Part shown: piece by piece, positions 3,429 to 27,442 of the stretch
Layout: every line of letters begins with the position of its first letter
How positions within the stretch are numbered: position 1 is the stretch's first letter
Program-made: the position numbers and the translations under genes
Notes under the pieces: model-generated
What the model saw: the letters and a program-made list of their open reading frames with translations, nothing else
Told to the model about the DNA's origin: nothing
Database searches by the model: none
Assembly: GCA_051439425.1 (NCBI GenBank)
Contig: JBFRWD010000049.1
Span: 1-30,672, forward strand
Direction: 5' to 3'
Length of the DNA: 30,672 nucleotides
DNA from: Synechococcus sp.
GTDB taxonomy: Bacteria > Cyanobacteriota > Cyanobacteriia > Thermostichales > PCC-7336

Positions 3429-5207
3429 CTACTTTGTCAGAGTGAAGGATGATGGAATTTCGATTCCCCGCTCGGTGAAGAAGATATTCATAGATACGCG
3501 GTCAATCATTTCACCAGTCCCAGTCATCAATTGTTCGATCGCTGTTTCCATCTCCCGCGATATCTCCTCACCGTCTCCAGATACCCTTGCTGTTGCATGC
3601 TCGGCCTCAAGTGCTTGGCCAACGATCTCGTAATATCGCTGGTTATCGAGATGAATGCTCAAGATCGGCGATACATCGTCAGCATTCGCATTGAATAGAT
3701 CGGATAGTTGGTTAGCGGAAGACTCTCCAATCGCCACCGCCAAGCTATCGTCGGTCATGGCAACGTAGGTCGAATCAAAGGGGCCCGGCACAAACTGACC
3801 GGTCAGCTGCGACACATCCAGTTGGACGGGCTCACCATCTGGCTGCAGATTAAGACTAGCTATTTGGGGGTTGAAGAATCCGAGCATGCCCAGTAACGAC
3901 TGTGGGTCTTCGTTGGCTAGCAGCAAACGTGCCCCGATTGATGTTGGAGGCTGAGGGTTTGCGAAGTCTAGACCGTCAATGGTGTCGATGACTGCAAGGA
4001 ATCCCCGAATCCCGTTGAAGGGGGGAACCAGAGGTTGGTTCAGAGCTTGGCGTCCCTCCAGCAGGTTATTTTGTAGTTCTGCTAATAGGTCACATTTGTA
4101 CGGATCGGCTTCTAAGGCGTCCAATTGCCCGGCCAAGAAGTCGCGGGCGGCCAACATATCGAGACTGAGGCCAAACGAGAACAAACCACCGGGATCGATG
4201 CCCAAGCCGGAAACCGGTGCGGCCAAGGTGGACAATCCACTGGCGAGATCGCTGCGCAGCTCCACCACTGTATTCGAGCTGATTTGAGTGGTGGTCATGT
4301 CGGTGTAGCCCGAGACGACGCGAGGCATGACGGCAGACATGTCGCGAATTTCGCTGCGGCAAACATCGCTCAGCTCGCTAGCATCGTAGTCCGCCAGGAC
4401 CAGCAATTCTGCATTTACACCGATCGGTTCATCCAAGAATGTTGCGACCATGCGCTCCACATCAAAGAAAGCCAAGGCATATGGAGTAAAGTCGTAATTC
4501 TTGGCTAGCTCCGTCAGTTCACCAGATTGGGCCAGACTTTGTTCGGGTAACTCCAGACCGAGAACATCATCTAGTAAATCGTCGGATAGCTCTGTCGGGG
4601 TGATCGTGGCCACCAGTTGATCGTCAAAAATCCCCACGATTATGCGTGCGTCTTCATCACCGATATACCGATACGGGCGACCTCCGATCTCACTCTTCAA
4701 CATGTCCTCACCGGCAGTCTCTTCTAATTCGGCAATTTTGGCCTCAAACGCGGCAGGATCCTCCAGGCCAACACGGAAGACCGGAAGCAATCCGACACCA
4801 TAGACAGCGATCTGCGGATTGCGCGGTACGCCCACTGCTTGACGCTCTTCGCTGCGCATCAGCGCGGCTAAGTCTTTCACCAGAGTCAGAAATTGACGGG
4901 ATTCATCTTCTTGCCGGCTTTGGGAGCCAAGTTCGTTGACCTCGTCCAGCATGGCTTCGAACAGGGTCTCGTAGGAGGAAGAGATTTTGTCGGCACTGGT
5001 TTCAAGTTTGCCAAGGACGTCTTCGGGGATTGTTCCGGAGGTTGCGAACACGTAGGGGGTGTTTGCTGGAACGTACTGCAATACCCCGTCATTCTGGCCC
5101 AGCACGGACGCGCCATTATCAGCAGTATTTCGACCGCAGGCTACCATTCCAAGGGTTACGGCACCGAGGAGCAAACGTTTAGCGGGCTTAGATTGCAACA
5201 TTGACAT
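3429..5207 (-). CDS. Hypothetical acidic lipoprotein
   Basis: Long ORF; basic N-terminus, hydrophobic stretch and lipobox-like LGMVA|C. Start set at ATG 5207 (MSMLQSKPAKR); the ORF track starts at TTG 5252. Confidence 0.8.
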   Translation of the reverse strand: MSMLQSKPAKRLLLGAVTLGMVACGRNTADNGASVLGQNDGVLQYVPANTPYVFATSGTIPEDVLGKLETSADKISSSYETLFEAMLDEVNELGSQSRQEDESRQFLTLVKDLAALMRSEERQAVGVPRNPQIAVYGVGLLPVFRVGLEDPAAFEAKIAELEETAGEDMLKSEIGGRPYRYIGDEDARIIVGIFDDQLVATITPTELSDDLLDDVLGLELPEQSLAQSGELTELAKNYDFTPYALAFFDVERMVATFLDEPIGVNAELLVLADYDASELSDVCRSEIRDMSAVMPRVVSGYTDMTTTQISSNTVVELRSDLASGLSTLAAPVSGLGIDPGGLFSFGLSLDMLAARDFLAGQLDALEADPYKCDLLAELQNNLLEGRQALNQPLVPPFNGIRGFLAVIDTIDGLDFANPQPPTSIGARLLLANEDPQSLLGMLGFFNPQIASLNLQPDGEPVQLDVSQLTGQFVPGPFDSTYVAMTDDSLAVAIGESSANQLSDLFNANADDVSPILSIHLDNQRYYEIVGQALEAEHATARVSGDGEEISREMETAIEQLMTGTGEMIDRVSMNIFFTERGIEIPSSFTLTK

Positions 5208-5458
5208 AAGCTTCGTAGGGGAGCAGACCGCGCAGGCCAATTGAACCTGCAAACGTCATTTCACATAAGGTGCCCCTTGGTCACTGGAAATCTCGGCCGT
5301 GCTTGGATATGAGGACAATTACTTATATCTTCGAGTTTCCTGGGCAGAAAATGTATGCCAGACATCATTCAATTTGGCGAATTGCAACGATTTAAAAGTC
5401 AGGGTCGCCCCGAACGTTAAGTTAGAATAAATACAGTTATCAAATTCGTTTAATACCC

Positions 5459-6724: not shown

Positions 6725-7435
6725 CTAGTTGGCTGCTTGAACAGAGTCCGGCGAGATCTCTCCGTTACGCACTTTTTCGAGGTAGTCAAACACGGATTTA
6801 TCACCAATGTCGGGGGGAATCGCTTGCAGTGCTTTGCGGGCAGCAAATACCAAGAATAAGGAGGCCCAAATCGCGAGGAGAATGACTTCACCCTGCAACC
6901 GAATGAATCCTCCTAAGTGTCCTAAAAGCAACAGCGGCACGATTGGCGCAAGGATCTTGGTTTCCAACCGGTTAAAACAAAACGCCTCTTTGACAAACAA
7001 ACCGGTTAGGGATGCAAATGTAAATCCAATCCCCAGCAGCATGAAGGGGTGTTGGTAAGTAAGCAGGGCTAGCGGGTGGGGAAACGACGCTGCAGCAAGG
7101 GCCATCGCACTCACCGAACCAATTCCCCAAAACACCTGCAAGGCTCGATGTAGCGCTCTCATATAGATGTGAATCGTCCACAGTGCCACCCCCATCGCCA
7201 CCGAAAATAGTCCGAAAAGGCCAGTGACAATCCAAGCGATCTCGGAAGGGGAGAGAGCCTGCGGTTGCCACAGCACCAACCCAGACGAGACTGCAAAACT
7301 GAGTGCTGCCACCATTAATGCCGAGCGATAGACAACCACGCCTCGACGATCGCCATCCGTAATCGTAAATTCGCCGAATTGCCCTTGATAAACGTCGGAT
7401 TGAATCCCTTCTGATGACATGTTGTCTGATTGCAT
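6725..7435 (-). CDS. DUF2301-family membrane protein
   Basis: YQGQFGEFTIT..DRRGVVVYR, IHIYMRALHRALQ, GL..KEAFCFNRLE, DIGDKSVF: the typical cyanobacterial/plastid DUF2301 pattern. Start may be a nearby downstream ATG. Confidence 0.88.
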   Translation of the reverse strand: MQSDNMSSEGIQSDVYQGQFGEFTITDGDRRGVVVYRSALMVAALSFAVSSGLVLWQPQALSPSEIAWIVTGLFGLFSVAMGVALWTIHIYMRALHRALQVFWGIGSVSAMALAAASFPHPLALLTYQHPFMLLGIGFTFASLTGLFVKEAFCFNRLETKILAPIVPLLLLGHLGGFIRLQGEVILLAIWASLFLVFAARKALQAIPPDIGDKSVFDYLEKVRNGEISPDSVQAAN

Positions 7436-7490
7436 CGTGTAACCTCCATGCAGCCGTGCTTCTAGTGTGGCAAAGCTTTCTATTCTGTTC

Positions 7491-7597
7491 TATAGCAATC
7501 CGCAGTCAGGTCTGGCATGGGGAGACAGCTCACGGTCTTTATGCACAATTAGGAGCGCTTGGAATGCTCTCCATTGCGGAATTTCTGGCGCGATCGC
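7491..7597 (+). repeat. ~105-bp dispersed repeat, copy C
   Basis: TATAGCAATCCGCAGTCAGGTCTGGCATGGGGAGACAGCTCA...CTCCATTGCGGAATTTCTGGCGCGATCGC; shares GGGAGACAGCTCA with the reverse complement of copy B. Confidence 0.78.
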
Positions 7598-7613
7598 TGC
7601 GGGTGGGGAGTGG

Positions 7614-10600
7614 CTACAAAATTGGGAAGTTCTCAACTGCGGTGCGGCGGTTGGGGAAACGTCTTAGTCCTAACTGTATGGACTGGCTTCGTAGGAAAGT
7701 TTGTACATCAGCCGTTAAGCCCGACCAACACAGTTGGCCTCGCAGTGCCCGGCAATGGTTAGCTGTGGCGACAATTGCGCCCAATGCCAACATGTCTGCT
7801 GATGTCACTAAGCTCATATCCATGACTATATTTGGAGAAAGTTGCTCGGCGATATCGAATAGCTCTTGACGAAGTTGCTTGTGAGGTCGTCGCTCCAGTC
7901 GTCCCCATAACGTCACCACGCAGATCGAGCATCCTCCCCGGGTTTCGGCGAACTCAATATTCATGGGAAGCAGCAGTGGACGCTCTAGGGGCGATTCAGT
8001 ATTGGCGACGGATTTTGCCCGCTGGACTAGCGATCGCGCAAAATAGTCAGCTGTTGTCTGGCGGATCAACCCTTGCTCGGCCAGTGCAACCCCCAATGGC
8101 ATTAGTTTTTGCTCTTGTTGTAGGGAATTTAGCGTTAATTGAACTTGCCGAGATGTGACCAACTGGGCGTCTTGAAGATATTCTCCAATGCGCTTGCGTT
8201 CTGCTAAATGTCGCGACCACAGTGAATCACTGAAGAAATTGATTGTCCTCATTCCTAAGCCTGTCTCCTGCTGGAGAATCGTGGCGATCGCTCCTCCATT
8301 GTCTTGCCATAGGGTCTGAACGCAGGCTAGTTGCGCGACACTGAGCAGCTCGGCCGCCTCAAGGCGTCGGAAGATAGGGGCGTTAGCATCCACCTCAAAT
8401 TTGAGGCCGTGAACTTTTAGGAGCGACTCGTTCACCAACAATGACGGAACGGTCCGATTGGGGATGGGGCGCGATGCATTTATTGACGATGGATCGCTGG
8501 TGGGTTGAGCTGACGACTTCCGAGTACCGGTAACCATATCGGAGACTTTACCCGACCCCATTCGATCGAGATCGGTCGAGTCAGAGTTAAGCGTGTTGAG
8601 CCAGTGGGTGACCATCAATAATTCACGCACGTTATCCGCCGTTCGGAGGTTAATAGCGCTATTCGCCACTGTCTCAGACGAGAGCGGCTTGAATTCGGCA
8701 TCGGGTTGACGAACGTCCTCAGACTCCAAGTCACTCCACAGTGCCAATTCGGGTTGAAGATCCAAGCTGGGTTCGGTATCTGCTTCAGAGAGTTCATCAC
8801 GATCGGAACTGGATTCTAAATCCGAGTTCAGTTCTAGAACCGAGTCAACTTCAAGAGCCCGATTAACTCCAAGAGTTATGTTGTCATCAAGAGCTAGGTC
8901 GGTGTCGAGATTTGAGTTCGTACCCATCCACTCAAGAGCAGGCTCAATGGTGGAGCCGACTTCAGACTCACTTGGGACCTCAATTGACACTGGTTCCAGC
9001 GTGGCATTATCAGTGGTGCCGATACTTTCTAGTTCTGGCTGACGTTCGAGAACTTCATCTACGATCTCTTTGATTGCAGGACTATCCGATTCCAAGAAGG
9101 AGTCTGAATCAGTTGTGCCTGAAAACAAGTACGCTGTCACGAGGGAAGCATAAGCATCGGTTGGCAACGAAAGAGTTCCAGATATCTCGTCCTCACCTGA
9201 TGATTCGGAAACTGTTGTTCCGGAAGCTTTGGATTCGGATATTGGTATTTCACTCGGAACCGTATCTTCGTCCCCCAGTCGATCGCCGTCTAGCTCCACG
9301 TCGAAGTTTTCTAATGAGTCTTGAGGGGCGACATCCTCAACAGAGAGAATATCGTCAGCAGGTTCAGCGGCATTGGATAACGCCAAGTCAATGTCGGCCA
9401 GGCAGAAATCGCTCTCGTCAGCATATCCCTCTGGGTTAAAACTACTGGATGCGATCGCCTCTTCTAATGGTTCCTCAGTTTGTCGTTCATCGACTTCAAT
9501 ATTAGCCGTTAGATTCACAAGATTTGCATCATCGGCTGACTCGGTTACTCGTTCTCCAGCGCTATCACTGATACTGTCGACGGTTTGTTGCTTGTCATCT
9601 ACGTCTCTGTCTCGGTCGTCCCCAAAGCCAAGCGTATCTAAGGACTTGTACTCTTCTACAAAAGCCGTACTAGTTGAATCAGTATCGAGCAGATTAATAG
9701 AATCCCGTTCTTGATTGCGATCTGCTTCAAGAGCTCGACTACCCGGCTCGTTCACGCCTTCGGATGCAGTAGAGGTGCCCAATCCTTTAAATGTCGGAAC
9801 GGTAAAGTCCATATCAGACTGAGTTTGAAAGTCTGTTGCTTCACTCGCTGCGTTAGGTTGTGCGCGGACTCGAATATCTGTTGGGCGCCAAGAATCCATT
9901 GAAGGTATTGGGGAAAGAGTTGGCGACCTAACTTGTTGCATATCTTGCAATCGGACTTTCTGAGGCCCCCGCGCAACAGCCAGAGTCAGTACGGATACAA
10001 ACAAAACCCAAAAAATATTGTCGTGAGCATAGAGCGGATGTTCCGAAAAATTAGAGAATAAGAACAGGCAGAAAAATAAAATCGGGAAGAAGTAGAGGGG
10101 AGAACGGCGAGTCCCAATGGCCCGAGAGAAATTCAGCGTTGCTGACCACAAGCAAATACAGACGCAAAGGGTGCCAATAAAGCCGACGTTCAACATTGAT
10201 TCCAAAATGCCGCTGTGTAGGTGCGTGTCAGCGGCCGTACTGGCTATTTGGGATAAAGTCTCTGATGGAATATCTAAACTTCCGTTCCAAAAGCTTTGGT
10301 AACCGTAACCAAGCAGAAATTGTTGCTTGATGGCGGTAAAAACTTCTGGGTCGGCAGCAATTTCACTGGATAGGGGAGAATCGAACTTAAATACCCCCAG
10401 CAAGGAATTAGCATTCACGGCAAGAGCATACAGAGTGAATGCGAAAATCGGGGTAACTGCGAATAGGAAGATTGTGCCTGCCCGTCCTTTTCGCCAGCGT
10501 GGGACGGCGATCGCTGGTGCTGCTGCCAGAACAACCAGTGCGCATTCTTGGGCAACGCTAGAGCCAGACAGGAATACGCAAATAATCGATACTACACACA

Positions 10601-11240
10601 GGACAACCCACGCTTGCCGTCGTCGCCCCTCTTTTTTTTGCAGAGCCAGCAGAAGAAATACCACAGTACCCAGCAGGGTTCTCAGGCCAAACGCATCGGG
10701 GTTCGCAAACACCCCACGGATTCCGGTCGAGTCTTGACTGACATCGCCCATAACCCAGAAGGCAATGGTGAAGAGGATTGACAACCCTAACAGCCCTACA
10801 AGGGTGTATCCCAACAGGCGTAGGAGGGCCGGTAGCGAAAACCTCAAGCCGAGATAAATGCCAAATAAACTGGCCTGTAATACAGAGAAACCACCCCACA
10901 GCGTTATAGCAGGATAGTCCGACCACAACGCTGACAGCATTGGGAAGAGAGCCATAACCCATAAAAGGCTCTCCTTCGGGAGGAATACCAGGAGTTGAAC
11001 GCGATACCTTGTAAGCAGTAAACCGGTCAAGATCGCATAACTTGCCAGGAATAGTAGCTGGGTAACGAGGTCGGATGCGTTCCCCAGCACCACTCCGAAT
11101 ATGGCGTCGAAATAGAGAATCAAGGAAGTAACTGTAAATACTTGCTCCAAGGAGGCCGCTCGGCCACTACGATTGGCTAGGTTGATCGCATTGTGTATCC
11201 ATGCTTGAACGGAAACCATGTGAGCTATCCCGACTATCAC
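7614..11240 (-). CDS. Multidomain membrane protein: O-antigen ligase/ExoQ-like domain + acidic linker + MshEN-like motifs + STAS domain
   Basis: Uninterrupted 1208-aa ORF. N-terminal ~425 aa multi-TM (SALWSDYP, RGVFAN, LLGYGYQSFW, HLHSGILE); D/E/S-rich middle; RIGEYLQDAQLVT...LGVALAEQGLIRQTTADYF; C-terminal VVTLWGRL..NIVMDMSLVTSAD..LGAIV. Start is GTG 11240 or ATG 11219. Confidence 0.85.
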   Translation of the reverse strand: MIVGIAHMVSVQAWIHNAINLANRSGRAASLEQVFTVTSLILYFDAIFGVVLGNASDLVTQLLFLASYAILTGLLLTRYRVQLLVFLPKESLLWVMALFPMLSALWSDYPAITLWGGFSVLQASLFGIYLGLRFSLPALLRLLGYTLVGLLGLSILFTIAFWVMGDVSQDSTGIRGVFANPDAFGLRTLLGTVVFLLLALQKKEGRRRQAWVVLCVVSIICVFLSGSSVAQECALVVLAAAPAIAVPRWRKGRAGTIFLFAVTPIFAFTLYALAVNANSLLGVFKFDSPLSSEIAADPEVFTAIKQQFLLGYGYQSFWNGSLDIPSETLSQIASTAADTHLHSGILESMLNVGFIGTLCVCICLWSATLNFSRAIGTRRSPLYFFPILFFCLFLFSNFSEHPLYAHDNIFWVLFVSVLTLAVARGPQKVRLQDMQQVRSPTLSPIPSMDSWRPTDIRVRAQPNAASEATDFQTQSDMDFTVPTFKGLGTSTASEGVNEPGSRALEADRNQERDSINLLDTDSTSTAFVEEYKSLDTLGFGDDRDRDVDDKQQTVDSISDSAGERVTESADDANLVNLTANIEVDERQTEEPLEEAIASSSFNPEGYADESDFCLADIDLALSNAAEPADDILSVEDVAPQDSLENFDVELDGDRLGDEDTVPSEIPISESKASGTTVSESSGEDEISGTLSLPTDAYASLVTAYLFSGTTDSDSFLESDSPAIKEIVDEVLERQPELESIGTTDNATLEPVSIEVPSESEVGSTIEPALEWMGTNSNLDTDLALDDNITLGVNRALEVDSVLELNSDLESSSDRDELSEADTEPSLDLQPELALWSDLESEDVRQPDAEFKPLSSETVANSAINLRTADNVRELLMVTHWLNTLNSDSTDLDRMGSGKVSDMVTGTRKSSAQPTSDPSSINASRPIPNRTVPSLLVNESLLKVHGLKFEVDANAPIFRRLEAAELLSVAQLACVQTLWQDNGGAIATILQQETGLGMRTINFFSDSLWSRHLAERKRIGEYLQDAQLVTSRQVQLTLNSLQQEQKLMPLGVALAEQGLIRQTTADYFARSLVQRAKSVANTESPLERPLLLPMNIEFAETRGGCSICVVTLWGRLERRPHKQLRQELFDIAEQLSPNIVMDMSLVTSADMLALGAIVATANHCRALRGQLCWSGLTADVQTFLRSQSIQLGLRRFPNRRTAVENFPIL

Positions 11241-11963: not shown

Positions 11964-12035
11964 TGGCACAGACGTGATTTGAACACGTGACCAAGGGCTT
12001 ATGAGTCCCCTGCTCTACCACTGAGCTACTGTGCC
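11964..12035 (-). tRNA. trnM: tRNA with CAT anticodon, most likely elongator tRNA-Met
   Basis: GGCACAGTAGCTCAGTGGTAGAGCAGGGGACTCATAAGCCCTTGGTCACGTGTTCAAATCACGTCTGTGCCA folds into a cloverleaf: acceptor GGCACAG/CTGTGCC, T-loop TTCAAAT, G1-C72 paired so not initiator. CCA is not encoded directly after the discriminator. Ile2 identity not fully excluded. Confidence 0.93.
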
Positions 12036-12832
12036 TAACATGTCCCGGTGCATGCAGCATTTGCAGGACGGCTACTAAACTACCACCTTGGTGCGATCGC
12101 TGCCAACTATTTTTTGGAACAGTTGACTAGCAAATTTTCAGCGGGTTCAGAAACCAATTAGTATTTCAGGCGGAACATCACAGTCTGGACTTTGACGGTG
12201 TTTCTCCACGCCCAGTATTTATTTCTACTGCATAGCCAAGCTTGCGATGAGTCAGTGTCACCAAGCTGCATATTCTTGCAGCAAGCTAGATGAAGATAAC
12301 TAACTCATTGTTCCAACGTTGACAGAACATGAGCTGGAGAGGGCTTCCGTGCTTTCGCGACAAGGAAAAATACGGGAGAATTCTGCCTGACGCTCAGTCG
12401 AAGACTATATGACAATGCGTCCCAACGACAGAAAGATCGAACAGTTGGCGATCGCAAGATTTGTAGGGCTCTGGGATTTCATACAGATTTAAAGGGGGGC
12501 GATCAAATTCTCCCGAATACAGTGTATTCACCACTGAACCCACTGCTTTGAGCGCCCAAGTTTGGGCAGAGTTAATGAGGGCTGCTCCTTCAAGATAGTG
12601 GATGTATTCTGTTGCTAGAAGAGTTTAAGTGTCATCACACTCAGTGATAGTGTTTCTGAGTTGCTAGACTCGATCGCTGTCAGGCCCTGTTGGGTAAGAC
12701 GTATACTGCACTCTCAGATGTCGATTTCTTGAAACGTGGCTGTGGCTCTGTACTCCTTGATAGAGTTTATACCTACGGTTCATTCTCTGTTCATTGGTTT
12801 TCCTGTCTGCATCGAACGGTGCCCTTTCCAAG

Positions 12833-13195
12833 ATGGCTAACAGCTCTAGCGACACTTCAAAAGCAAACTGCCGACATGTTTTAGCGGTAGAGGACTGCGA
12901 TGGAGTTCGGGAGCATGCCCTCAGCAATCCGAAGTACTTTATTGGTCGGGATATTGCGAATGATATCTGCTTAAATTCTGAGTTTGCGTCCCGCTACCAC
13001 GCCCTTTTGTTGCGGGTGCCTACTCCTCAGAATGGGGAGTATCGATATCGGATTTTAGATGGTGACGTAGAGGGAAAGCCCAGCACAAACGGACTAACTG
13101 TGAATGGCGAAAAAGTCAGTGCACATCAGCTAAGCGAAGGTGATGTCATCACCTTCGGTCCCGATGCCAAAGCCATCTATCACATTATGCAGTAA
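12833..13195 (+). CDS. Stand-alone FHA domain protein
   Basis: IGRD, FASRYHA, DGD..GKPSTNGL.VNG, LSEGDVITFG conserved FHA motifs; ATG 12833 chosen as start. Confidence 0.92.
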   Translation: MANSSSDTSKANCRHVLAVEDCDGVREHALSNPKYFIGRDIANDICLNSEFASRYHALLLRVPTPQNGEYRYRILDGDVEGKPSTNGLTVNGEKVSAHQLSEGDVITFGPDAKAIYHIMQ

Positions 13196-20931: not shown

Positions 20932-22497
20932 TTAAGTCGATCGGCGTGGTTGGCCGATGGTTGTTATGTACAACACGGCTTCTTCTGGGGGAATACCTAA
21001 GACTTCGTTCACTAAGTTGTCAAAGAAGCCTGCAATTCCGCTGACTCCTAGCTTGAGCCTCACGGCGGCAAGATTAATTCTTTGGCCCAAATGGCCAGCA
21101 TCGAGGTGTAAGTAGCGATACCCGCGATCTCCGTGTCGTTGCACTGCTTGCTCGAGATCGGCAGTGTGGACAATAGCTACGGCAGCATCTCGGCCTAAAT
21201 CTTGGCCCAAACAGAGATAGTGAACATCTTGGCGGAATGACTTGAAACGAATTTGGCGCAGTTGTTGGGCGTGGGCTGCATAGTAGTAACAACCATCATC
21301 CAGGCCCTCTACTCCATTGGCAACGACAAAGGTTTCAATTAAAGATGCATCAAAGTAATCGGGTTGGGGATCGAGCCCCTGGTCACGGTAGTGCTCTGGT
21401 TGGTAGGCAAAATCAAGCAATTGTCGCAGGCGATCGATATCGATGTTGCCCCCTGTAAATTGGCGGGTGGAGCGACGGTGCAGGATGGTATTGGCCAATG
21501 GCTGCAGCATCTCTCCCCAAGCGATGGGAAAGGCTTGGGCCTCAATGCGATCGCAGAACGGAAAGTTGTACTTATCCTCAATAGAGGTGGGAGTGTTGGA
21601 TTCAGGGGGCTCACCAGATATAGACGGACATTCTTGCCAGGTGCGCTGTATTGCCGATTCGTCTACGGCAATGCGGGTGTGTCGATGCAGGAAGTCAAGC
21701 CATTCTCCCCGACTGGGTTGAGTGGATGGTCGGTCAATAGATGCATCGCTACTTACGCGATCTCGATTGAGTCGGTATCGCCGGATCGATGGGTTCACCA
21801 ATAAATCCTGTAGGGGCAAGAGGGCAAGAGTACCCTCTTGTCGTTCGTCAAGCGAGAGTAGTCGCTCGATGGGTTCGTCTTGAAATTCCCCAATCGAGGA
21901 TGCCCGAAACCCGGTCATATTAGCGGATAGTTCAATGTTGCCTAACAGGTGACCGGTATCCAGGCACAATCGGCGATACGCACGATCTTCGTAACGCCAG
22001 GCCGATCGTTGAAAGACTGCTGTGAGGACAATGACAGCGTCCGATGCGGCCAATAGCGGATGGGAAAAACAGGCGTCGGACAGTATGCTCCAGTCGCAGT
22101 CATCCCAGTACTTCAGGAGGGCATGGTCGAGGACTTGATAGTTGTAGATTCCCTCAGGGAGTCCTGGCCTTCCTTTCGATACGAGATAGATTTCGGCAGG
22201 GTACAGACCTCCAGCAGATGGAGCACTGCGCAAAAAAATCGGGCGCTCTCTCGGGATAATCGCCGTAACACCGTAACTGAGATGCAGCAAACGCGATAAA
22301 CGTTGCAAGAAGCGCTCCCCACTCTCTGGATTGACAGCAGGTGAGGATAAGTGGGGTTTCAGCTCTAACGAATGGCCGATCGGATAGGTTTTGAAAGGAG
22401 AGGGTTGTTGAGACCAATCCAACGGGCGGCTGAGAGACGCGATGGTCTCTGGATCGTACTTGGTGAATTCGTGGTAGGACGGGCTGACGGCAATCAC
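20932..22497 (-). CDS. SagB/ThcOx-family dehydrogenase (tandem nitroreductase domains)
   Basis: YHEFTKY, LRSAPSAGGLYPAEIY, WRYEDRAYRR..LDTGH, RRSTRQF, RGYRYLHLDAGHLGQR, GIAGFFD. Confidence 0.92.
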   Translation of the reverse strand: MIAVSPSYHEFTKYDPETIASLSRPLDWSQQPSPFKTYPIGHSLELKPHLSSPAVNPESGERFLQRLSRLLHLSYGVTAIIPRERPIFLRSAPSAGGLYPAEIYLVSKGRPGLPEGIYNYQVLDHALLKYWDDCDWSILSDACFSHPLLAASDAVIVLTAVFQRSAWRYEDRAYRRLCLDTGHLLGNIELSANMTGFRASSIGEFQDEPIERLLSLDERQEGTLALLPLQDLLVNPSIRRYRLNRDRVSSDASIDRPSTQPSRGEWLDFLHRHTRIAVDESAIQRTWQECPSISGEPPESNTPTSIEDKYNFPFCDRIEAQAFPIAWGEMLQPLANTILHRRSTRQFTGGNIDIDRLRQLLDFAYQPEHYRDQGLDPQPDYFDASLIETFVVANGVEGLDDGCYYYAAHAQQLRQIRFKSFRQDVHYLCLGQDLGRDAAVAIVHTADLEQAVQRHGDRGYRYLHLDAGHLGQRINLAAVRLKLGVSGIAGFFDNLVNEVLGIPPEEAVLYITTIGQPRRST

Positions 22498-22605
22498 TGT
22501 GAAGTAATTGGTAGGTGATGGAACATCAAAATAGTGACTTCATTGTTAGAACTGACCCCGTTGCTGTCAACCAATCTAGTGTTTCTTTGCAAGTATTCGC
22601 GTGGC

Positions 22606-22987
22606 AGTTCTGTTGCAGGAAAGTGTTGAGTGACAAGAACCTTTCGCAGCTCTTGGATTGTTATACAGCAATCCCAAAGGGCTGATGGATGAAGTTTATC
22701 TGAGCAATGACGTCACACCGAGCGACACCATCCAGCTGCCCCTTTCTAATCATGTTGATAGTTGCATATCCCCTGAGAGTTCGTTGAGCACTCCAGGAGT
22801 TCTTGAAATGCTGGCTGGCTTATCCTCGATACCTCAAGTACCACCTTACCTGCCATGATGATGATCGAAGGGGGGAAGTGACGACTTTTGAACGGAGTAT
22901 CGTCTGGCACATGGTCGCTAATCAAGGGAACTACAGGGTCTTACACTACCATCTTTCTTCAGGTACTCCGAAGTTTGCAACAGTACC
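22606..22987 (-). mobile_element. Internally deleted IS6-family element (382 bp)
   Basis: Ends GGTACTGTTGCAAA (minus strand from 22987) and AGTTCTGTTGCAGG (22606) resemble IS26/IS257 termini; encloses both transposase termini. No matching 8-bp flanks (CGCGTGGC vs AGATAAAT). Confidence 0.88.
22661..22910 (-). pseudogene. IS6-family transposase remnant (N- and C-termini fused, DDE core missing)
   Basis: GTG 22910: PDDTPFKSRHFPPSIIIMA, frameshift, VRWYLRYRG-stop, then QHFKNSWSAQRTLRGYATINMIRKGQLDGVARCDVIAQINFIHQPFGIAV-stop at 22661. Confidence 0.88.
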
Positions 22988-25954
22988 AGATAAATAGGGA
23001 CTCAGCTTATCCGCCAAAACTTCAACATATGGTTCAGCTAATATTTGAAGATGTGAACCTGGCACTTCATGTATTGTTAGATTTTCTTCACTAACTATAT
23101 TGCCCCAACCAAGGTCATCCTTGTCATCAAACCTAACTGAAGGAAATGCAAAGAAGGGATCGACGGCTCTAAAAAGCACGACCTTACCTGCGTAGAACTG
23201 TGGAGTGTATGATTCCTTATTAGTTATTCGTATTCCTAGATAATTATTGAATGGACTTTCTGAGTGAAATAATTCCTTGTTAGTTACTGACTTGATTTTC
23301 TCTCTAATGAGATCACTTACTTTCGTTGCGAGCAAAAAGGGGTTTCTATAGCTCAAATTATACAGCTTGTACGCCATGCGAAAATATTTCTCCTGTCTTG
23401 ATATCTTTATTGTTCCCTCTTTGGTATAAGTATCAAACAACGCAAGAAGATTTACCTTTTCACCTTTATCTTGTAGTTGCTGGGTAATTTCAAAAGCTAC
23501 AATTCCACCCATAGAAGCGCCAGCCAGAAGATATGGACCTTTGGGCTGAATAGACTGAATTTCTTGAACATAGTGTGTCGCTATTTCACTTATGCTTAGC
23601 TCAAGAACTTTGTCTTTCCTTTTATCCCAATTAGCTAATCCATATCTTACGCCGTAAATTGGTATATTTACTTTTAGGTGACGTGCTAGATTGCGATATA
23701 AGTTTTTATTATTGCCATTGGAAAGAACATGAATTGCGAACAGGGGGTTATATAACGAATTCCCAGGCCAAATTCTTACCAAGGAATGCGGATGAACTGA
23801 ATGTTTGTATTGAGATTTATATTGAGAGTTGCCAGGATGGATTAGGAAGCTGCCTTTCTTGACTTCTGGGCTGTCATTCAGGATGGCTTCGATAAGAGTA
23901 GTTAGTTCAATTATAGTTGGGGATTCATAAAGAATTCCGAGGGGCAAGTCTATGCCTAAAGCTTCCTGTAATCGGTGGATGACCTGCATTGCTAGGAGCG
24001 AATGACCACCTAAGTCAAAGAAGTTATCGTGAATCCCCACCCGCTCAATCTTTAGCAGTGTTTGCCAAAGGTCAGCAACTCTTTGTTGCAACTCATTTTC
24101 TGGCGCAACGTAAATTATTGGCGTATAAGGAGCGCTTACGTTAGGACCTGGCTCGAATGTCTCAGTTGCGGTCGTTGCCCCAGGCAGCACCCAATAAGGG
24201 TGATAATCGAACTGGTAAAACGGGACATCAATGAACTGGCCTGGAAAAAATTGATACAGCTGCTCCCAATCAATCTGGATGCCCTCCAGCCATTGCTGAG
24301 CCAAGTAGCGGAGGAGGTCTGCTTGCTCTGAAATGGGGGTTTCTGGAGCAGGATAAATGAGTGCTGGAGGTTCCTTGCTCTGGCGACGACTGCTCTTATG
24401 CCCAAAGTGAGTGGTGGATTGAGACAGCAAATCATCGAGCTGCTGGCGTAAATCTTCGAGAGAGTGAGCCACGATCGCCAGCCGATAGGCAAAGTGAGAT
24501 CGTCGGGTGCTGGCTGTAAAGCATATATCTCGTAGCGCGCAAGCGGGACGTTCGCTAAGCTTGTCTCGATAGGCCTGTGAGAGCAAGCGCAAGGATGAGT
24601 CACTCTTGGCAGACAAGGTCAACAGAGCCGGTTCAATCATGGGGGCCGGGTTAGGCATCTGGTCAGGGACCGGGTCAGACTCGACACCGGTCAAAACGAC
24701 GTGGACATTCGTTCCGCCTAGACCGAAGCAACTCACGCCGGCTGTCGCCGGGGCATCCTGTACGGGCCAATTGCTTAACTCTGTCTGGATTTTCAGGGGT
24801 AATTCGTCAAAGGCCACGTAGGGATTGGGCTCCTGGAAATGCAGATGCGGCGGAATTTGTTGATGCTTCAATGCCAGGGCAACTTTAATCAACCCCGCCA
24901 TCCCAGAGACCACTTCGGTATTTCCCAAGTTCGTTTTCACAGATCCTAAGCGACAGGGATTACCCTGTGAGCGATCACGCGCCATGAATTCTCCCAAGGT
25001 TTTGAGTTCTAGGGAATCTCCAAGGGGCGTTGCTGAACCATGGGCTTCAACGTATTGCACTTGCCCAGGGGAAATACCTGCCCGGTGATAAGCAGTTTCT
25101 AAGAGGGCTTTTTGTGCCTTGGGATTGGGCGCAGTCAGCCCATTTCCCCGACCATTGTGATTAAGGGCTGTTCCCTGAATCACCGCATAAATGCGATCGC
25201 CATCCGCCTCAGCCTGGGATAATGGTTTTAAGATAACAGCTCCAACCCCTTCCCCCCGCGCAAAACCATCCGCCTGGGCATCGAAACTGCGACAGCATCC
25301 GGTTTGTGAAATAAGACCAGCTTTGGCTAAATTGGCTGTGCCTTGACTAGACAGTACCAAATTAACCCCACCGGCAAGTGCTAAGGTGGATTCCCCTAGA
25401 ATTAAACTCTGACAAGCTTGATGAACTGCGACTAACGAGGAAGAGCAAGCCGTGTTAATTGCGACACTCGGTCCCCGAAAATTAAACTGAAATGAAATGC
25501 GATTAGCCGAGATCGAGGTATTTTGAGTTGTCGAATCGTAAGGATTTTCTGGAGATGCTTCGAGGAGTTTAGTATAGCGATTCGCCGCGACGCCCACAAA
25601 GACGCCGGTTTGACTTCCTGCTAAATTCGTAGGAACCTGTCCTGCATCTTCTAAAGATTCCCAGGCCACTTCCAACAGGAGTCGTTGTTGGGGATCGATT
25701 ATCGCTGCCTCTTCAGGGGGGATGCCAAAAAATTTAGGGTCAAACCGCTCGATTCCCTTCAGAAATCCGCCCCAAGTCGCCCGTGACTCTGCTTCAGGAA
25801 TCGGGTCCAGCGTGTAGTCAATGCCTTGACGATCAGTTGGCGCAGCTCCCACTGCATTAACTCCATTGCGCAGCAATTGCCAAAATTCGTCAGGCGTCGC
25901 TGCCCCTGGAAAACGGCAGCCAATACCAATAATTGCAATTTCGATTTGACTCAT
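22946..25954 (-). CDS. AT-less type I PKS-like protein: KS - carrier domain (PCP-like) - thioesterase
   Basis: IAIIGIGCRFPGA, DPQQRLLLE, NTACSSS, EAHGSAT, GSVKTNLGNTE, GVSCFGLGGTN; no AT (no GQG or GHSxG); FFDLGGHSLLA carrier; GPYLLAGASMGG and VPGSH thioesterase. Confidence 0.93.
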   Translation of the reverse strand: MSQIEIAIIGIGCRFPGAATPDEFWQLLRNGVNAVGAAPTDRQGIDYTLDPIPEAESRATWGGFLKGIERFDPKFFGIPPEEAAIIDPQQRLLLEVAWESLEDAGQVPTNLAGSQTGVFVGVAANRYTKLLEASPENPYDSTTQNTSISANRISFQFNFRGPSVAINTACSSSLVAVHQACQSLILGESTLALAGGVNLVLSSQGTANLAKAGLISQTGCCRSFDAQADGFARGEGVGAVILKPLSQAEADGDRIYAVIQGTALNHNGRGNGLTAPNPKAQKALLETAYHRAGISPGQVQYVEAHGSATPLGDSLELKTLGEFMARDRSQGNPCRLGSVKTNLGNTEVVSGMAGLIKVALALKHQQIPPHLHFQEPNPYVAFDELPLKIQTELSNWPVQDAPATAGVSCFGLGGTNVHVVLTGVESDPVPDQMPNPAPMIEPALLTLSAKSDSSLRLLSQAYRDKLSERPACALRDICFTASTRRSHFAYRLAIVAHSLEDLRQQLDDLLSQSTTHFGHKSSRRQSKEPPALIYPAPETPISEQADLLRYLAQQWLEGIQIDWEQLYQFFPGQFIDVPFYQFDYHPYWVLPGATTATETFEPGPNVSAPYTPIIYVAPENELQQRVADLWQTLLKIERVGIHDNFFDLGGHSLLAMQVIHRLQEALGIDLPLGILYESPTIIELTTLIEAILNDSPEVKKGSFLIHPGNSQYKSQYKHSVHPHSLVRIWPGNSLYNPLFAIHVLSNGNNKNLYRNLARHLKVNIPIYGVRYGLANWDKRKDKVLELSISEIATHYVQEIQSIQPKGPYLLAGASMGGIVAFEITQQLQDKGEKVNLLALFDTYTKEGTIKISRQEKYFRMAYKLYNLSYRNPFLLATKVSDLIREKIKSVTNKELFHSESPFNNYLGIRITNKESYTPQFYAGKVVLFRAVDPFFAFPSVRFDDKDDLGWGNIVSEENLTIHEVPGSHLQILAEPYVEVLADKLSPYLSGTVANFGVPEERW

Positions 25955-26109
25955 AATGATACGTTTTGGCTAATAAATTTACATAAAATCAGGGGGAACC
26001 GTATCTAAAAATAGTTAGCTTCAAGTGAATTGCAAAAAAATCCCGTTTTTAATTTAATTTCCAATAACAAATAGTTTCACTTGCTCAAATACAAATTTGA
26101 TATGTGTCT

Positions 26110-27330
26110 TTAAACACTAGGATTAAATGTTATGGGTAAAGACGTTAGCCCTCTAAGGGTAATACTTTCGCGCCACTCAGGCTGTTCTGTCCTTAACATC
26201 ATCCCATTTAGTCGCTGAACAAGCGTCTGAATGCCAACTTGTCCTTGTATTCTGGCCAGTGCTGCTCCCAGGCAGTAATGCATGCCACCCCCAAAGGGAA
26301 GATTGGTATGCTGACGTTCCCAATTCAATTCATCAGGATTTGGAAACTGAGCCGGGTCGCGATTTGCCGCACCCAGACAGACAATTACTTTATCCCCCGC
26401 TCTAATGGTCTTACCTCCAATGTCCACGTCTTCAGTAGCTAGCCGGGCTAAGAACTGTACTGGGCTGTCATATCGCAGAAGCTCCTCCACGATCATCCTA
26501 GTTTTATCGGGATTCTGCTTAACAAAAGTAATTTTTTCAGGCTGTTGGAGCAATGCTAAGATACCATTTCCGATCAGGCTTTTTGTCGTTTCTTGACCCA
26601 CAATAAACAGCATGATGCAAAAGCCGAGGAGCTCATCTTTACTCAGTTGTTTGCCCTGGTCGCGGGCCACGATGAGACGTCCGATCAGGCCATCTCCGGG
26701 CTGCTGTTCTTGTTGGGCAATTAGATCCCGCAAATAGTTTCTCGCCTCAATTGCCATAGCGTTTTGTCGTTGATATCCTTCCAATGACATTGGTTGGTCA
26801 AAGACAAAAAAAAGTTCATGGGACCATCTCACTAGTTTGTGAAAATCTTCGCACGGTACTCCCAAGAGTCTCGTAACCGTCATTGCAGGCAGCGGTCCGG
26901 CAAAGTCGGCCATCACATCCATTTCCCCTTGATCCGCTACCCGATCAATTAAGTCATGGACTAAGGTTTGAATCATTGGTTTTATTGCATCAATGCTACC
27001 AGGTGCAAATGCTTTGCTGACTAACCCTCTAAGACGAGTATGATCGGGAGCTTCTAAGAAAAAAAGCCATTTCTCGATAGTGTGAGCCAGTGGGTTAAGG
27101 TCGCCCTTCTTCAGAAATCGATTCTTCTGTTGCAGGCGTTCTGGTAGATCATCCACTCTAAAGCGTTTATCCTTTAGCACTAGAGCCGCATCTGCATATC
27201 TAGTAATGACCCAAGCTTGCAGAAAGCTCCAGTGAATCGGATCCTTATCCCGTAAGCGTTGATAAGTAGGATATGGGTTTGAGTGAAACTCTGATGAGAA
27301 CGGATTAAATTTAACGGTTTCTGTTGTCAT
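26110..27330 (-). CDS. Cytochrome P450 (CYP107/BioI-like)
   Basis: PYPTYQRLR, PDHTRLRGLVSKAF, I-helix VGQETT, EELLRYDSPVQ, AANRDP, heme motif FGGGMHYCLG. Confidence 0.96.
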   Translation of the reverse strand: MTTETVKFNPFSSEFHSNPYPTYQRLRDKDPIHWSFLQAWVITRYADAALVLKDKRFRVDDLPERLQQKNRFLKKGDLNPLAHTIEKWLFFLEAPDHTRLRGLVSKAFAPGSIDAIKPMIQTLVHDLIDRVADQGEMDVMADFAGPLPAMTVTRLLGVPCEDFHKLVRWSHELFFVFDQPMSLEGYQRQNAMAIEARNYLRDLIAQQEQQPGDGLIGRLIVARDQGKQLSKDELLGFCIMLFIVGQETTKSLIGNGILALLQQPEKITFVKQNPDKTRMIVEELLRYDSPVQFLARLATEDVDIGGKTIRAGDKVIVCLGAANRDPAQFPNPDELNWERQHTNLPFGGGMHYCLGAALARIQGQVGIQTLVQRLNGMMLRTEQPEWRESITLRGLTSLPITFNPSV

Positions 27331-27442
27331 ACTGATGAATAAATTGAATAACTATTGCGATAGAGAGAGTGATCTGGGAAGCAAGACTTCTTCTATCCCT
27401 TGCATCTATTCAATAGTCTTACTTGTCTATCCGTTAACGTAT

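What the first reader, a model, noticed from the sequence alone, without database searches (positions are those of the whole stretch)
7614..11240. O-antigen-ligase-like membrane domain fused to an acidic spacer, MshEN-like motifs and STAS
Seen: one 1208-aa ORF joining a multi-TM WaaL/Wzy_C (ExoQ-like) domain, about 400 aa of D/E/S-rich low-complexity sequence, RxGxxL-type repeats and a terminal STAS fold. Established: MshEN binds c-di-GMP, STAS domains are regulatory partner modules, and WaaL/ExoQ proteins handle lipid-linked glycans. I do not recall this combination. Inference: a membrane-anchored hub coupling c-di-GMP or partner-switching signals to surface polysaccharide or pilin glycosylation.
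Basis: partly seen in the sequence, partly recalled or inferred. Interest (0 to 1): 0.78.

Follow-up and report, generated by a model that had tools for sequence, protein, structure and literature searches.

The report
Glycan ligase with tethered signalling tail
A rare cyanobacterial membrane protein joins an O-antigen-ligase-type enzyme, through a long acidic flexible tether, to a cytoplasmic module built from two MshE-like helical bundles and a STAS domain, a combination not described before whose signalling input is still unknown.

Summary
Window 7614-11240 (-) is one 1208-codon ORF; the likely start is the ATG at 11219, giving 1201 aa. It encodes four parts.

1. A 12-helix WaaL/PglL-type Wzy_C domain: Pfam 41.2 bits against a cut-off of 31.7, and model Z 19.9 to WaaL 7TPG.
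2. A hypervariable linker of about 430-490 aa with net charge near -80.
3. Two GSPII/MshEN-type four-helix bundles.
4. A STAS domain: Z 15.4, TM 0.78-0.82 to SpoIIAA and RsbV.

It is not an assembly artefact. Orthologues from several other assemblies keep the same order. A contig from an independent run bridges the tail and the linker, with an in-frame 180-nt gap.

The MshEN match is below threshold (21-23 bits against 38). The first bundle has lost both motifs. The second bundle keeps R-I-G and L-G but lacks the Gly18 and Arg38 equivalents. The STAS domain has Met in place of the phospho-serine in all 8 family members, so classical partner switching is unlikely.

The tail also exists as a free 298-aa paralogue in the same genomes. 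The whole module occurs in only 6 of 1.84 billion representative proteins. I read it as a glycan transferase carrying a tethered adaptor or sensor module. Whether it binds c-di-GMP is open (about 35%). It is a new variant of known kinds, of moderate interest.

The parts
7614..11240 (-). Whole ORF, 1208 codons from GTG 11240 (stop codon included). Probable true start is ATG 11219 (1201 aa).
   Evidence: Orthologues and the database copy start at MVSVQAW. A 2-nt gap at 11238 in the independent contig of run X2.
9951..11240 (-). N-terminal membrane domain, aa 1-430: WaaL/PglL-like GT-C fold of about 12 TM helices. The Pfam Wzy_C core covers aa 214-360 (nt 10161-10601).
   Evidence: Pfam 41.2 bits against 31.7; 45.6 bits. 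AF2 model pLDDT 81.4, pTM 0.83. WaaL 7TPG_B: Foldseek E 8.8e-6; VIA Z 19.9 with 358 residues aligned, next best FtsW at Z 12.0. Family profile against PDB: O-OTase 9RMK_A 3.3e-10, WaaL 3.6e-6.
10173..10223 (-). Periplasmic-loop motif H-L-H-S-G-x8-G-x2-G (aa 340-356), just before the antepenultimate TM helix. It aligns with 'HAHND' of WaaL and 'HSHN' of the O-oligosaccharyltransferase, the segment that holds the proposed catalytic His.
   Evidence: H335, G337, G346 and G349 (P0002 numbering) are invariant in 9 of 9 sequences. In the 23-row alignment G346 and G349 stay invariant and H335 is nearly invariant (at least 90% of rows). HMMER alignments to 9RMK_A and 7TPG_B. Proposed catalytic His of WaaL/PglS as described in passages of PMC12800693.
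8655..9950 (-). Acidic, S/T-rich, hypervariable linker (aa 431-862), predicted to be cytoplasmic and disordered.
   Evidence: Composition and net charge -82. In the 4 long orthologues the linker is 377-470 aa, D+E 21-25%, net -69 to -105, and 27-37% identical, against 51-64% for the TM domain and 64-69% for the tail. In-frame 180-nt gap at 8915-9094 in run X2. No Pfam hit at E<=10.
8379..8654 (-). Conserved segment before the module (aa 863-954). It includes the conserved islands around S-E-A-D-T-E-P and V-R-E-L-L-x2-T-H-W-L-N-T-L.
   Evidence: Invariant columns in alignment A1. Function unknown.
8217..8378 (-). GSPII/MshEN-like four-helix bundle 1 (aa 955-1008). It is degenerate: neither motif keeps the R/K-h-G start.
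   Evidence: AF2 helices 31-80, pLDDT above 90. It aligns with canonical motif pairs of relatives P0047 and P0132 and with PilF GSPII-A (6F8L, 9G1W) in the profile search.
8001..8198 (-). GSPII/MshEN-like four-helix bundle 2 (aa 1015-1080). Motif I starts at R1017 (R-I-G), a 7-residue spacer follows, and motif II starts at P1048 (P-L-G).
   Evidence: NF053729 18.2-23.1 bits against a cut-off of 38. VIA: MshE 5HTL_B Z 6.3, rmsd 2.0 A, 59 aligned, 25% identity, model 91-153 on chain 7-65; PilF GSPII-B 8PDK_A Z 6.0, rmsd 1.5 A. The profile aligns in register with MshE residues 7-63. Relaxed motif: 8/11 and 10/11.
7617..7982 (-). C-terminal STAS domain (aa 1087-1208), with D1149-M1150 in place of the D-S phosphorylation site.
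   Evidence: PF01740 25.2 bits against 22.6. Foldseek: SpoIIAA 1TH8_B E 7.6e-6, TMt 0.78; RsbV 6M36_B TMt 0.81. VIA Z 15.4 (3F43_A), 14.6 (1TID_B). Ser-to-Met seen in the alignment to 1TH8_B. 8 of 8 family members lack the Ser.

Best explanation
This is a real single gene for a bitopic 'enzyme plus tethered module' protein.

The N-terminal domain of about 12 TM helices is a WaaL/PglL-type GT-C transferase. It most likely moves an undecaprenyl-pyrophosphate-linked glycan onto an acceptor (lipid A-core, a protein or another glycan) at the periplasmic face. The loop His motif is intact.

After the last helix the chain enters the cytoplasm and continues as a polyanionic disordered tether of about 430 aa. 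The tether carries an autonomous module of about 260 aa: two GSPII (MshEN-type) four-helix bundles followed by a STAS domain that cannot be phosphorylated at the canonical site.

I propose that the module is a binding switch or adaptor, not a catalytic part. It binds a cytoplasmic protein partner through STAS, and possibly a nucleotide through bundle 2. That would couple the partner to the site of glycan ligation, either to regulate the enzyme or to place the partner at the membrane. The same module exists untethered in the same cell, so the tethered and free forms probably share a ligand or partner.

Shown: domain identities, order, folds, the His motif, the rarity, and that it is one ORF.
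Inferred: enzymatic activity, cytoplasmic location of the tail, and the adaptor role.
Unknown: the acceptor, the partner, the ligand.
For: One ORF. The same architecture occurs in P0003, P0004 and P0005 (44-61% identity by BLASTP), and in P0006 with a shorter linker. The source assemblies are listed. An independent contig bridges 7429-9845 with an in-frame 180-nt gap.

Enzyme part: Pfam Wzy_C over its cut-off. WaaL is the only Foldseek hit at E<=1e-3. VIA Z is 19.9 over model 18-420 against 12.0 for the SEDS proteins. The His/Gly motif is conserved and aligns to WaaL and an O-OTase.

Topology: there are three helices after the His loop, and Arg/Lys-rich stretches follow the first and third of them (sequence; helices). 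The tail domains belong to cytoplasmic families.

Tail folds: pLDDT 89.1; STAS Z up to 15.4; MshE Z 6.3 at 25% identity. Family profiles hit SpoIIAA at 3e-14, PilF at 1.3e-9 and MshE at 1.3e-4 to 1.4e-5.

Autonomy of the module: a free 298-aa paralogue (47-48% identity) is present in G000 and in G005.

The theme of glycan enzymes carrying MshEN-type units recurs in this genome, for example WecG/TagA GT26 plus two units (L006). c-di-GMP signalling is present: 15 GGDEF matches.
Against: No polysaccharide or LPS gene cluster surrounds the gene. Its neighbours are ferrochelatase, DUF2301, a tRNA-Met and an FHA gene.

The Wzy_C score is the lowest of the 8 copies in the genome. The nearest tail-less relatives are only 24-29% identical, so the substrate and even the activity are uncertain.

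No partner for the STAS domain was identified.

In the tail model pTM is only 0.55, so the packing of the domains against each other is not defined.

A linker of 230-470 aa argues against a tight docking of the tail on its own enzyme domain in cis. Direct allosteric control is therefore not favoured, and the purpose of the tether is unexplained.
Confidence: 0.5

Rival explanations
1. A true c-di-GMP receptor of the NfrB type. Bundle 2 binds c-di-GMP as MshEN does, and this binding switches the ligase or polymerase on. Surface glycan output would then follow c-di-GMP levels.
For: Bundle 2 aligns in register with MshE residues 7-63 and superposes on the c-di-GMP-bound MshE and PilF GSPII-B structures. 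It keeps R-I-G, L-G, the Gly47 equivalent and most hydrophobic positions; motif II meets 10 of 11. Pro at motif position 1 is allowed in the published relaxed motif (PMC5013675, passages) and is common in paralogues that pass NF053729. Relative P0007 passes at 43.2 bits. In NfrB and MshE more than one substitution was needed to abolish binding (PMC8669469, passages). The genome has 15 GGDEF matches.
Against: NF053729 scores 18-23 bits against a cut-off of 38 for the target, the free paralogue and P0006. The Gly18 equivalent is Q/E/H/Y in 8 of 8 family members, and the Arg38 equivalent is P in 7 and M in 1. In PilF GSPII-A, a Ser at the Arg38 position abolished binding, and small deviations together with inter-subdomain contacts prevented it (PMC12002112, abstract and passages). 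Bundle 1 has lost both motifs. The long linker makes allosteric transmission to the membrane domain hard to picture.
Confidence: 0.3
2. Anchor or decoy. The Wzy_C domain serves mainly as a membrane anchor, or as a sensor of lipid-linked glycan. The biologically relevant activity is that of the GSPII-STAS module, which competes with or recruits its free paralogue or a shared partner. This would be a phosphorylation-independent partner switch between membrane and cytoplasm.
For: The free and fused forms are both present in both GTDB genomes that have either (G000, G005). Both are also listed for MAGs J06597_1 and P01_G01_bin.4. The tail is more conserved than the enzyme domain (64-69% against 51-64%). 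The Wzy_C domain is the most divergent of the 8 copies. Seven ordinary Wzy_C genes could cover the housekeeping ligase and polymerase roles.
Against: The His/Gly loop motif and other residues of the enzyme domain are invariant across the family and its distant relatives. That is not expected for a mere anchor. No evidence of an interaction between the tail and the free paralogue was obtained.
Confidence: 0.15
3. Artefact: a chimeric assembly or a frameshifted join of two genes, an O-antigen ligase gene and a STAS gene, with a non-coding spacer read through by chance.
For: In Logan's own contigs of the probable source run X1, the gene is split into two contigs that overlap by only 23 nt (9318-9340), in the middle of the linker. 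The linker has no family match.
Against: The X2 contig from another study bridges 9095-9845 and 7429-8914. Four orthologous proteins at 44-61% identity, plus P0006, keep the same order in one frame. The indels seen inside the coding part are multiples of three (180 nt and 3 nt). The linker keeps its composition while its sequence drifts.
Confidence: 0.02

Closest known systems
WaaL O-antigen ligase (Cupriavidus metallidurans, PDB 7TPG/7TPJ) and the O-linking oligosaccharyltransferases of the PglL/PglS type (PDB 9RMK)
   Same: Pfam Wzy_C. A GT-C fold of about 12 TM helices (Z 19.9, 358 residues aligned). A periplasmic loop with the conserved H-x-H-[NS] segment followed by G-x2-G.
   Different: Only 14% identity to WaaL. 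It carries a cytoplasmic extension of about 780 aa, which the 403-residue WaaL chain does not have room for. Acceptor and donor are unknown. There is no LPS or pilin gene context.
NfrB of E. coli (GT2 glycosyltransferase, TM helices, C-terminal MshEN; c-di-GMP-activated exopolysaccharide synthase; PMC8669469)
   Same: A membrane glycan enzyme with a C-terminal cytoplasmic MshEN-type unit. There are weak NCBIfam matches to the NfrB models over aa 1013-1065.
   Different: The enzyme is Wzy_C, not GT2. The MshEN unit is degenerate and sub-threshold. There is an extra degenerate bundle, a STAS domain and a linker of about 430 aa. c-di-GMP binding is untested.
MshE N-terminal domain (PDB 5HTL) and the PilF GSPII domains (8PDK, 9G1W)
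   Same: A four-helix bundle with two tandem 24-residue motifs aligned in register; 25% identity and rmsd 2.0 A over 59 residues.
   Different: The Gly18 equivalent is Gln, the Arg38 equivalent is Pro, the Gln32 equivalent is Leu, and the spacer has 7 residues instead of 5. There is no ATPase. It resembles the non-binding PilF GSPII-A case as much as the binding ones.
SpoIIAA/RsbV anti-sigma-factor antagonists and other single-domain STAS proteins
   Same: STAS fold (TM 0.78-0.82, Z 13-15). The family profile hits SpoIIAA at 3e-14.
   Different: No phosphorylatable Ser (Met1150). It is fused behind GSPII bundles and a membrane enzyme. TIGR00377 scores 25.7 bits against a cut-off of 53.45. No cognate kinase or phosphatase lies nearby.
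Cyanobacterial Wzy_C proteins with long extensions
   Same: Wzy_C genes with frames of 680-1000 aa are common in the phylum.
   Different: In the 11 long ones examined, the extra parts are TPR repeats (4 of 11) or have no Pfam family. 0 of 11 have STAS or MshEN-like domains.

Membership tests
Wzy_C / O-antigen ligase superfamily (PF04932; WaaL, PglL, ExoQ-like) | Match to the Pfam model above its gathering score | tested here: met
   41.2 bits against 31.7 on aa 1-460; 45.6 bits in the genome search. The match was not listed when the whole 1208-aa protein was scanned. The precomputed Pfam annotation of P0002 lists PF04932.
Wzy_C / O-antigen ligase superfamily (PF04932; WaaL, PglL, ExoQ-like) | WaaL-like multi-TM GT-C fold | tested here: met
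   AF2 pLDDT 81.4, pTM 0.83. 7TPG_B: Foldseek E 8.8e-6, TM 0.52/0.55; VIA Z 19.9, rmsd 5.4, 358 aligned, next best 12.0.
Wzy_C / O-antigen ligase superfamily (PF04932; WaaL, PglL, ExoQ-like) | Conserved His in the large periplasmic loop (proposed catalytic base) | tested here: met
   H-L-H-S-G aligns with HAHND of WaaL and HSHN of 9RMK. The His is invariant in 9 of 9 sequences and nearly invariant in 23. The catalytic role of the His is taken from passages of PMC12800693. The pattern H[NSQ]x9Gx2[GTY] is recalled, not from a call.
Wzy_C / O-antigen ligase superfamily (PF04932; WaaL, PglL, ExoQ-like) | Ligase, polymerase or O-OTase activity on an Und-PP-linked glycan | not testable with these tools
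   Needs genetics or biochemistry. The family profile hits an O-OTase (3.3e-10) better than WaaL (3.6e-6), so the subtype is open.
MshEN / GSPII c-di-GMP-binding domain | Match to a curated model above its cut-off (NCBIfam NF053729; Pfam T2SSE_N) | tested here: not met
   NF053729 scores 18.2, 21.2 and 23.1 bits against 38. No T2SSE_N hit at E<=10. Paralogues L003, L005, L007 and L008 and relative P0007 do pass.
MshEN / GSPII c-di-GMP-binding domain | Four-helix bundle superposable on MshEN_N | tested here: met
   5HTL_B Z 6.3, rmsd 2.0 A, 59 aligned, 25% identity. 8PDK_A Z 6.0, rmsd 1.5 A, 57 aligned. Z is modest for a small helical bundle. The register agrees with the sequence profile alignment.
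MshEN / GSPII c-di-GMP-binding domain | Two 24-residue motifs RLGxxhhxxGhhxxxxLxxxLxxQ | tested here: inconclusive
   The relaxed published motif is matched in full 0 times. Motif I meets 8 of 11 positions and motif II 10 of 11. The Gly18 equivalent is Gln and the Arg38 equivalent is Pro. Paralogues that pass the HMM also mostly score 10 of 11.
MshEN / GSPII c-di-GMP-binding domain | Binding of c-di-GMP | not testable with these tools
   Needs DRaCALA, ITC or MST on the purified tail.
STAS / anti-sigma-factor antagonist (SpoIIAA, RsbV type) | STAS model match and fold | tested here: met
   PF01740 scores 25.2 bits against 22.6 on the cut tail and 21.7 bits on the whole protein. Foldseek E 7.6e-6, TMt 0.78-0.82. 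VIA Z 13-15.4.
STAS / anti-sigma-factor antagonist (SpoIIAA, RsbV type) | Phosphorylatable Ser/Thr in the D-S-S-G loop (partner-switching control) | tested here: not met
   D-M in the target, aligned to D-S of 1TH8_B. In 8 of 8 module-family sequences the residue there is M, A, I or L. Of the 12 STAS-only rows in the same alignment, 10 carry D-S, 1 carries D-R (P0075) and 1 carries S-H (P0148).
STAS / anti-sigma-factor antagonist (SpoIIAA, RsbV type) | NCBIfam TIGR00377 above its cut-off; cognate kinase or phosphatase gene adjacent | tested here: not met
   TIGR00377 scores 25.7 bits against 53.45. The neighbouring genes include no RsbW/SpoIIAB-like or PP2C gene. The rest of the genome was not searched for these.

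The most novel reading that the evidence does not exclude
The GSPII-GSPII-STAS module, in a tethered and a free copy, is a new phosphorylation-independent membrane/cytoplasm partner-switch. It reports or controls the state of lipid-linked glycan transfer at a WaaL-type enzyme. The polyanionic tether of about 400 aa is itself a functional element, setting reach, excluding other molecules or sensing cations, rather than a passive spacer.
Probability: 0.15. Interest if true: 0.75.

Novelty: new variant of a known kind. Interest (0 to 1): 0.5.

Why it matters
WaaL, Wzy and PglL-type enzymes work on the outer face of the inner membrane, and cytoplasmic control of them is little known. A member of this family with a large, well-folded cytoplasmic signalling module would be a natural entry point for asking how the last step of surface-glycan assembly is regulated from inside the cell.

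It also adds two things to the MshEN/GSPII family: a new context (Wzy_C) and a new partner domain (STAS). The degenerate motifs of this family are a useful test of which deviations still allow c-di-GMP binding.

The practical weight is limited. The family is confined to a few uncultured marine cyanobacterial genomes, and no phenotype or ligand is known.

Tried and rejected
1. Complex prediction, fused tail against free paralogue: no verdict (scores 0.26 and 0.19; the mark is 0.32). This counts neither for nor against binding.

2. Gene context as a clue.
- The window has no glycan cluster.
- DUF2301 lies directly downstream in G000 and G005. It is a core gene that is present without the target, and with other neighbours, in G004 and G006. 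The adjacency may therefore only reflect shared ancestry.
- The free paralogue sits beside two Pfam-less ORFs (213 aa, membrane; 147 aa) in both genomes. It is not in an EPS cluster. A Wzy_C gene 11 kb away is separated from it by clpX and the trigger-factor gene.
- The 213-aa ORF is unrelated to DUF2301.

3. Search for more family members.
- The metagenome scan found 3 weak partial loci only.
- Two genome-contig scans found only the J06642_12 MAG.
- Among the 30 genomes of the order, the whole module occurs only in G000 and G005.
- The ESM Atlas gave a best score of 0.76, which is only a lead.

4. RNA evidence: no RNA holder is listed for this stretch.

5. Promoter and terminator scan: no more sites than in shuffled sequence.

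6. Tandem repeats in the linker: one weak 15-nt array only.

7. Earlier notes of this scan: none for this place.

8. Single-sequence search of the tail against PDB sequences gave only weak SpoIIAA hits (E 0.02). Profiles were needed.

9. The first N-terminal profile (9 sequences) hit WaaL only at E 0.41. The 23-sequence profile reached 3.6e-6.

10. Literature. 'O-antigen ligase' with 'STAS domain' gave 1 paper, by its listing on Leptospira transcription profiles. 'MshEN' with 'STAS' gave 6 papers. Five are by their listings off-topic; the sixth, on M. xanthus PilB and EPS, was not opened. I found no description of this architecture. The library lacks most subscription journals.

Full report
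**Observation**

The start is probably the ATG at 11219, giving 1201 aa.
- The database copy P0002 and the three full-length orthologues all begin seven codons later, at MVSVQAW.
- A contig from an independent sequencing run has a 2-nt gap at 11238, inside that GTG.

**Enzyme domain**

- A Pfam scan of the whole protein listed only STAS.
- The first 460 aa scanned alone give Wzy_C (PF04932) at 41.2 bits against a gathering score of 31.7, over aa 214-360. A genome-wide search with the model gives 45.6 bits at 10161-10601.
- Hydrophobic segments run from aa 33 to 427.
- An AlphaFold2 model built from a 23-row alignment (pLDDT 81.4, pTM 0.83) has WaaL (7TPG_B) as its only Foldseek hit at E<=1e-3 (8.8e-6, TM 0.52/0.55).
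- With VIA-align, WaaL scores Z 19.9 (358 residues, model 18-420 on chain 5-407), well above FtsW and RodA (Z 12.0 and below).
- The 23-sequence family profile hits an O-linking oligosaccharyltransferase (9RMK_A, 3.3e-10) better than WaaL (3.6e-6). In both alignments the target's H-L-H-S-G segment lies on HSHN and HAHND.
- That His and the following Gly residues are invariant in 9 of 9 sequences. In the 23-row alignment two of those Gly stay invariant and the His is nearly invariant.
- Passages of PMC12800693 describe this His as the proposed catalytic residue of WaaL and PglS.

So the domain belongs to the WaaL/PglL/Wzy_C superfamily. Whether it is a ligase, an O-OTase or a polymerase cannot be told. 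It is the lowest-scoring of 8 Wzy_C copies in this genome; the other seven lie in frames of 442-478 aa. The nearest tail-less relatives are 24-29% identical.

**Topology (inferred)**

Three helices follow the periplasmic His loop. Arg/Lys-rich stretches follow the first and the third of them. The chain therefore ends in the cytoplasm, which fits the families found in the tail.

**Linker**

- Residues 426-920 are 12.3% D, 10.3% E and 13.3% S, with net charge -82.
- They have no Pfam match at E<=10 and only one weak, short tandem array.
- In the four long orthologues the linker is 377-470 aa, D+E 21-25%, net -69 to -105. It is only 27-37% identical, against 51-64% for the membrane domain and 64-69% for the tail.
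- P0006, a 922-aa relative with the same end domains, has a linker of about 230 aa that is not strongly acidic (net -9).

**Tail**

An AlphaFold2 model of aa 925-1208 from a 31-row alignment is confident (pLDDT 89.1). Its pTM of 0.55 leaves the packing between domains undefined. The model shows eight helices forming two four-helix bundles, followed by an alpha/beta domain.

*STAS domain*
- The alpha/beta domain is STAS: SpoIIAA 1TH8_B E 7.6e-6 with TMt 0.78, RsbV TMt 0.81, and VIA Z up to 15.4.
- PF01740 scores 25.2 bits against 22.6 on the cut tail.
- The Ser that is phosphorylated in SpoIIAA is Met here.
- In all 8 of 8 sequences of the module family that position is M, A, I or L. Of the 12 STAS-only rows in the same alignment, 10 carry D-S there.

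*Helical bundles*
- The second bundle superposes on the c-di-GMP-binding subdomain of MshE (5HTL_B: Z 6.3, rmsd 2.0 A, 59 residues, 25% identity, chain 7-65) and on PilF GSPII-B (Z 6.0, rmsd 1.5 A).
- A profile of the helical region aligns in register with MshE 7-63 (E 1.4e-5), with PilB and with PilF (2.6e-10).
- In that register the target has R-I-G for MshE R9-L10-G11, Gln for Gly18, Leu for Gln32, Pro-Leu-Gly for R38-L39-G40, Gly for Gly47, and a 7-residue spacer instead of 5.
- The curated NCBIfam model for this motif scores 18-23 bits against a cut-off of 38.
- Of the relaxed motif published by Wang et al. (PMC5013675, passages), motif I meets 8 of 11 constrained positions and motif II meets 10 of 11.
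- The first bundle aligns with canonical motif pairs in relatives but has lost the R/K-h-G starts of both motifs.
- Work on PilF GSPII-A shows that small deviations can abolish binding; Ser at the Arg38 position did so (PMC12002112, abstract and passages).
- On the other side, single substitutions in NfrB and MshE only weakened the function (PMC8669469, passages). Pro at motif position 1 is also common in paralogues of this genome that pass the model.

c-di-GMP binding is therefore open. I put it at about 35%.

**Is it one gene?**

Yes.
- Full-length orthologues P0003, P0004 and P0005 (44-61% identity) and the shorter P0006 keep the same order.
- They come from several MAGs and from ENA and Logan assemblies.
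- In run X2, from another study, one contig covers 7429-8914 and 9095-9845. It joins the tail to the linker with an in-frame 180-nt gap, and further contigs tile the rest at 95-99% likeness with one 3-nt gap.
- Logan's contigs of the probable source run break at 9318-9340, but the X2 contig spans that place.

**How rare?**

- In 1.84 billion representative proteins, 151 match the tail at E<=1e-3. Only 6 match the whole module at E<1e-30: four Wzy_C fusions, a 492-aa protein with extra MshEN-like units, and a free 298-aa form.
- Among 30 genomes of the order, only G000 and G005 have it. Both are in the same genus, and two other members of that genus lack it.
- Scans of 185,579 species genomes and of the metagenome collection added nothing beyond the J06642_12 MAG.
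- Long Wzy_C proteins are common in the phylum. In the 11 examined, the extras are TPR repeats (4 of 11) or have no Pfam family. None has STAS or MshEN-like domains.
- Two literature searches found no description of this architecture.

**The free paralogue**

G000 and G005 each also encode a 298-aa protein that is the tail module alone, at 47-48% identity. The module is therefore an autonomous unit.

The helical region alone is widespread in cyanobacteria:
- at the C-terminus of many coiled-coil proteins of 550-830 aa that have no Pfam family;
- in front of FHA domains;
- twice behind a WecG/TagA glycosyltransferase in this genome (L006).

The genome has 15 GGDEF matches.

**Mechanism I commit to (confidence 0.5)**

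This is a WaaL/PglL-type glycan transferase whose cytoplasmic end carries a GSPII-GSPII-STAS binding module on a long polyanionic tether. The module binds a cytoplasmic partner through STAS without phosphorylation control, and possibly a nucleotide. That couples the partner to the ligation site.

- Shown: domains, order, folds, the His motif, the single ORF, the rarity, and the autonomy of the module.
- Inferred: enzymatic activity, topology and the adaptor role.

Rivals:
- An NfrB-like c-di-GMP-activated enzyme (0.3).
- An anchor or decoy in a switch with the free paralogue (0.15).
- An assembly artefact (0.02).

**Verdict**

This is a new variant built from known domain kinds, confined to a few uncultured marine cyanobacteria. 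Interest 0.5.

Noticed in passing
window 11964-12035 (-): tRNA-Met (CAT) lies in the 1.5-kb gap between the target gene and the divergent FHA gene (12794-13195, +). No ORF of 100 aa or more lies in that gap.
   Followed up: no
window 20932-29578 (-): A run of natural-product-type genes: a nitroreductase-family protein (521 aa), KS-ACP-thioesterase (1002 aa), a cytochrome P450, and a fatty-acyl-AMP ligase with ACP (711 aa).
   Followed up: no
window 6725-7435 (-); L009 13860-14555: A DUF2301 membrane-protein gene lies directly downstream of the target in both genomes that have it, while the other neighbours differ. DUF2301 also occurs without the target in G004 and G006, so the link may be ancestry only.
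   Followed up: partly
L006 670-1968 (G000 contig C103): A WecG/TagA family (GT26) glycosyltransferase is fused to two MshEN-like units. This is a second glycan enzyme with this kind of tail in the same genome.
   Followed up: partly
L003 991-2277; P0017, P0018, P0021: The same two-bundle helical region occurs in front of an FHA domain in several cyanobacterial proteins. A stand-alone FHA gene also lies near the target in the window.
   Followed up: partly
P0009, P0011, P0012, P0014 and others: There is a large set of coiled-coil proteins of 550-830 aa without any Pfam family. They carry the helical region at the C-terminus. In P0009 and P0011 they also carry canonical MshEN motifs near the N-terminus (NF053729 139.9 and 109.1 bits).
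   Followed up: partly
L020 4611-5747 (-); L019 282-1427 (-): In both genomes the free 298-aa paralogue is followed by a 213-217-aa membrane ORF and a 147-aa ORF, neither with a Pfam family.
   Followed up: partly
window 8915-9094, 10628, 11238: Strain differences in run X2: an in-frame 180-nt gap in the linker, a 3-nt gap in the membrane domain, and a 2-nt gap in the annotated GTG start.
   Followed up: yes
window 3429-5252 (-): A 607-aa ORF has no Pfam match at E<=0.001. Its start looks like a lipoprotein-type signal; this is read from the sequence and was not tested.
   Followed up: no
window 8379-8654 (-): There are short conserved islands at the end of the otherwise hypervariable linker, around S-E-A-D-T-E-P and V-R-E-L-L-x2-T-H-W-L-N-T-L. 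They are invariant in 4 of 4 long orthologues and may be docking motifs.
   Followed up: no
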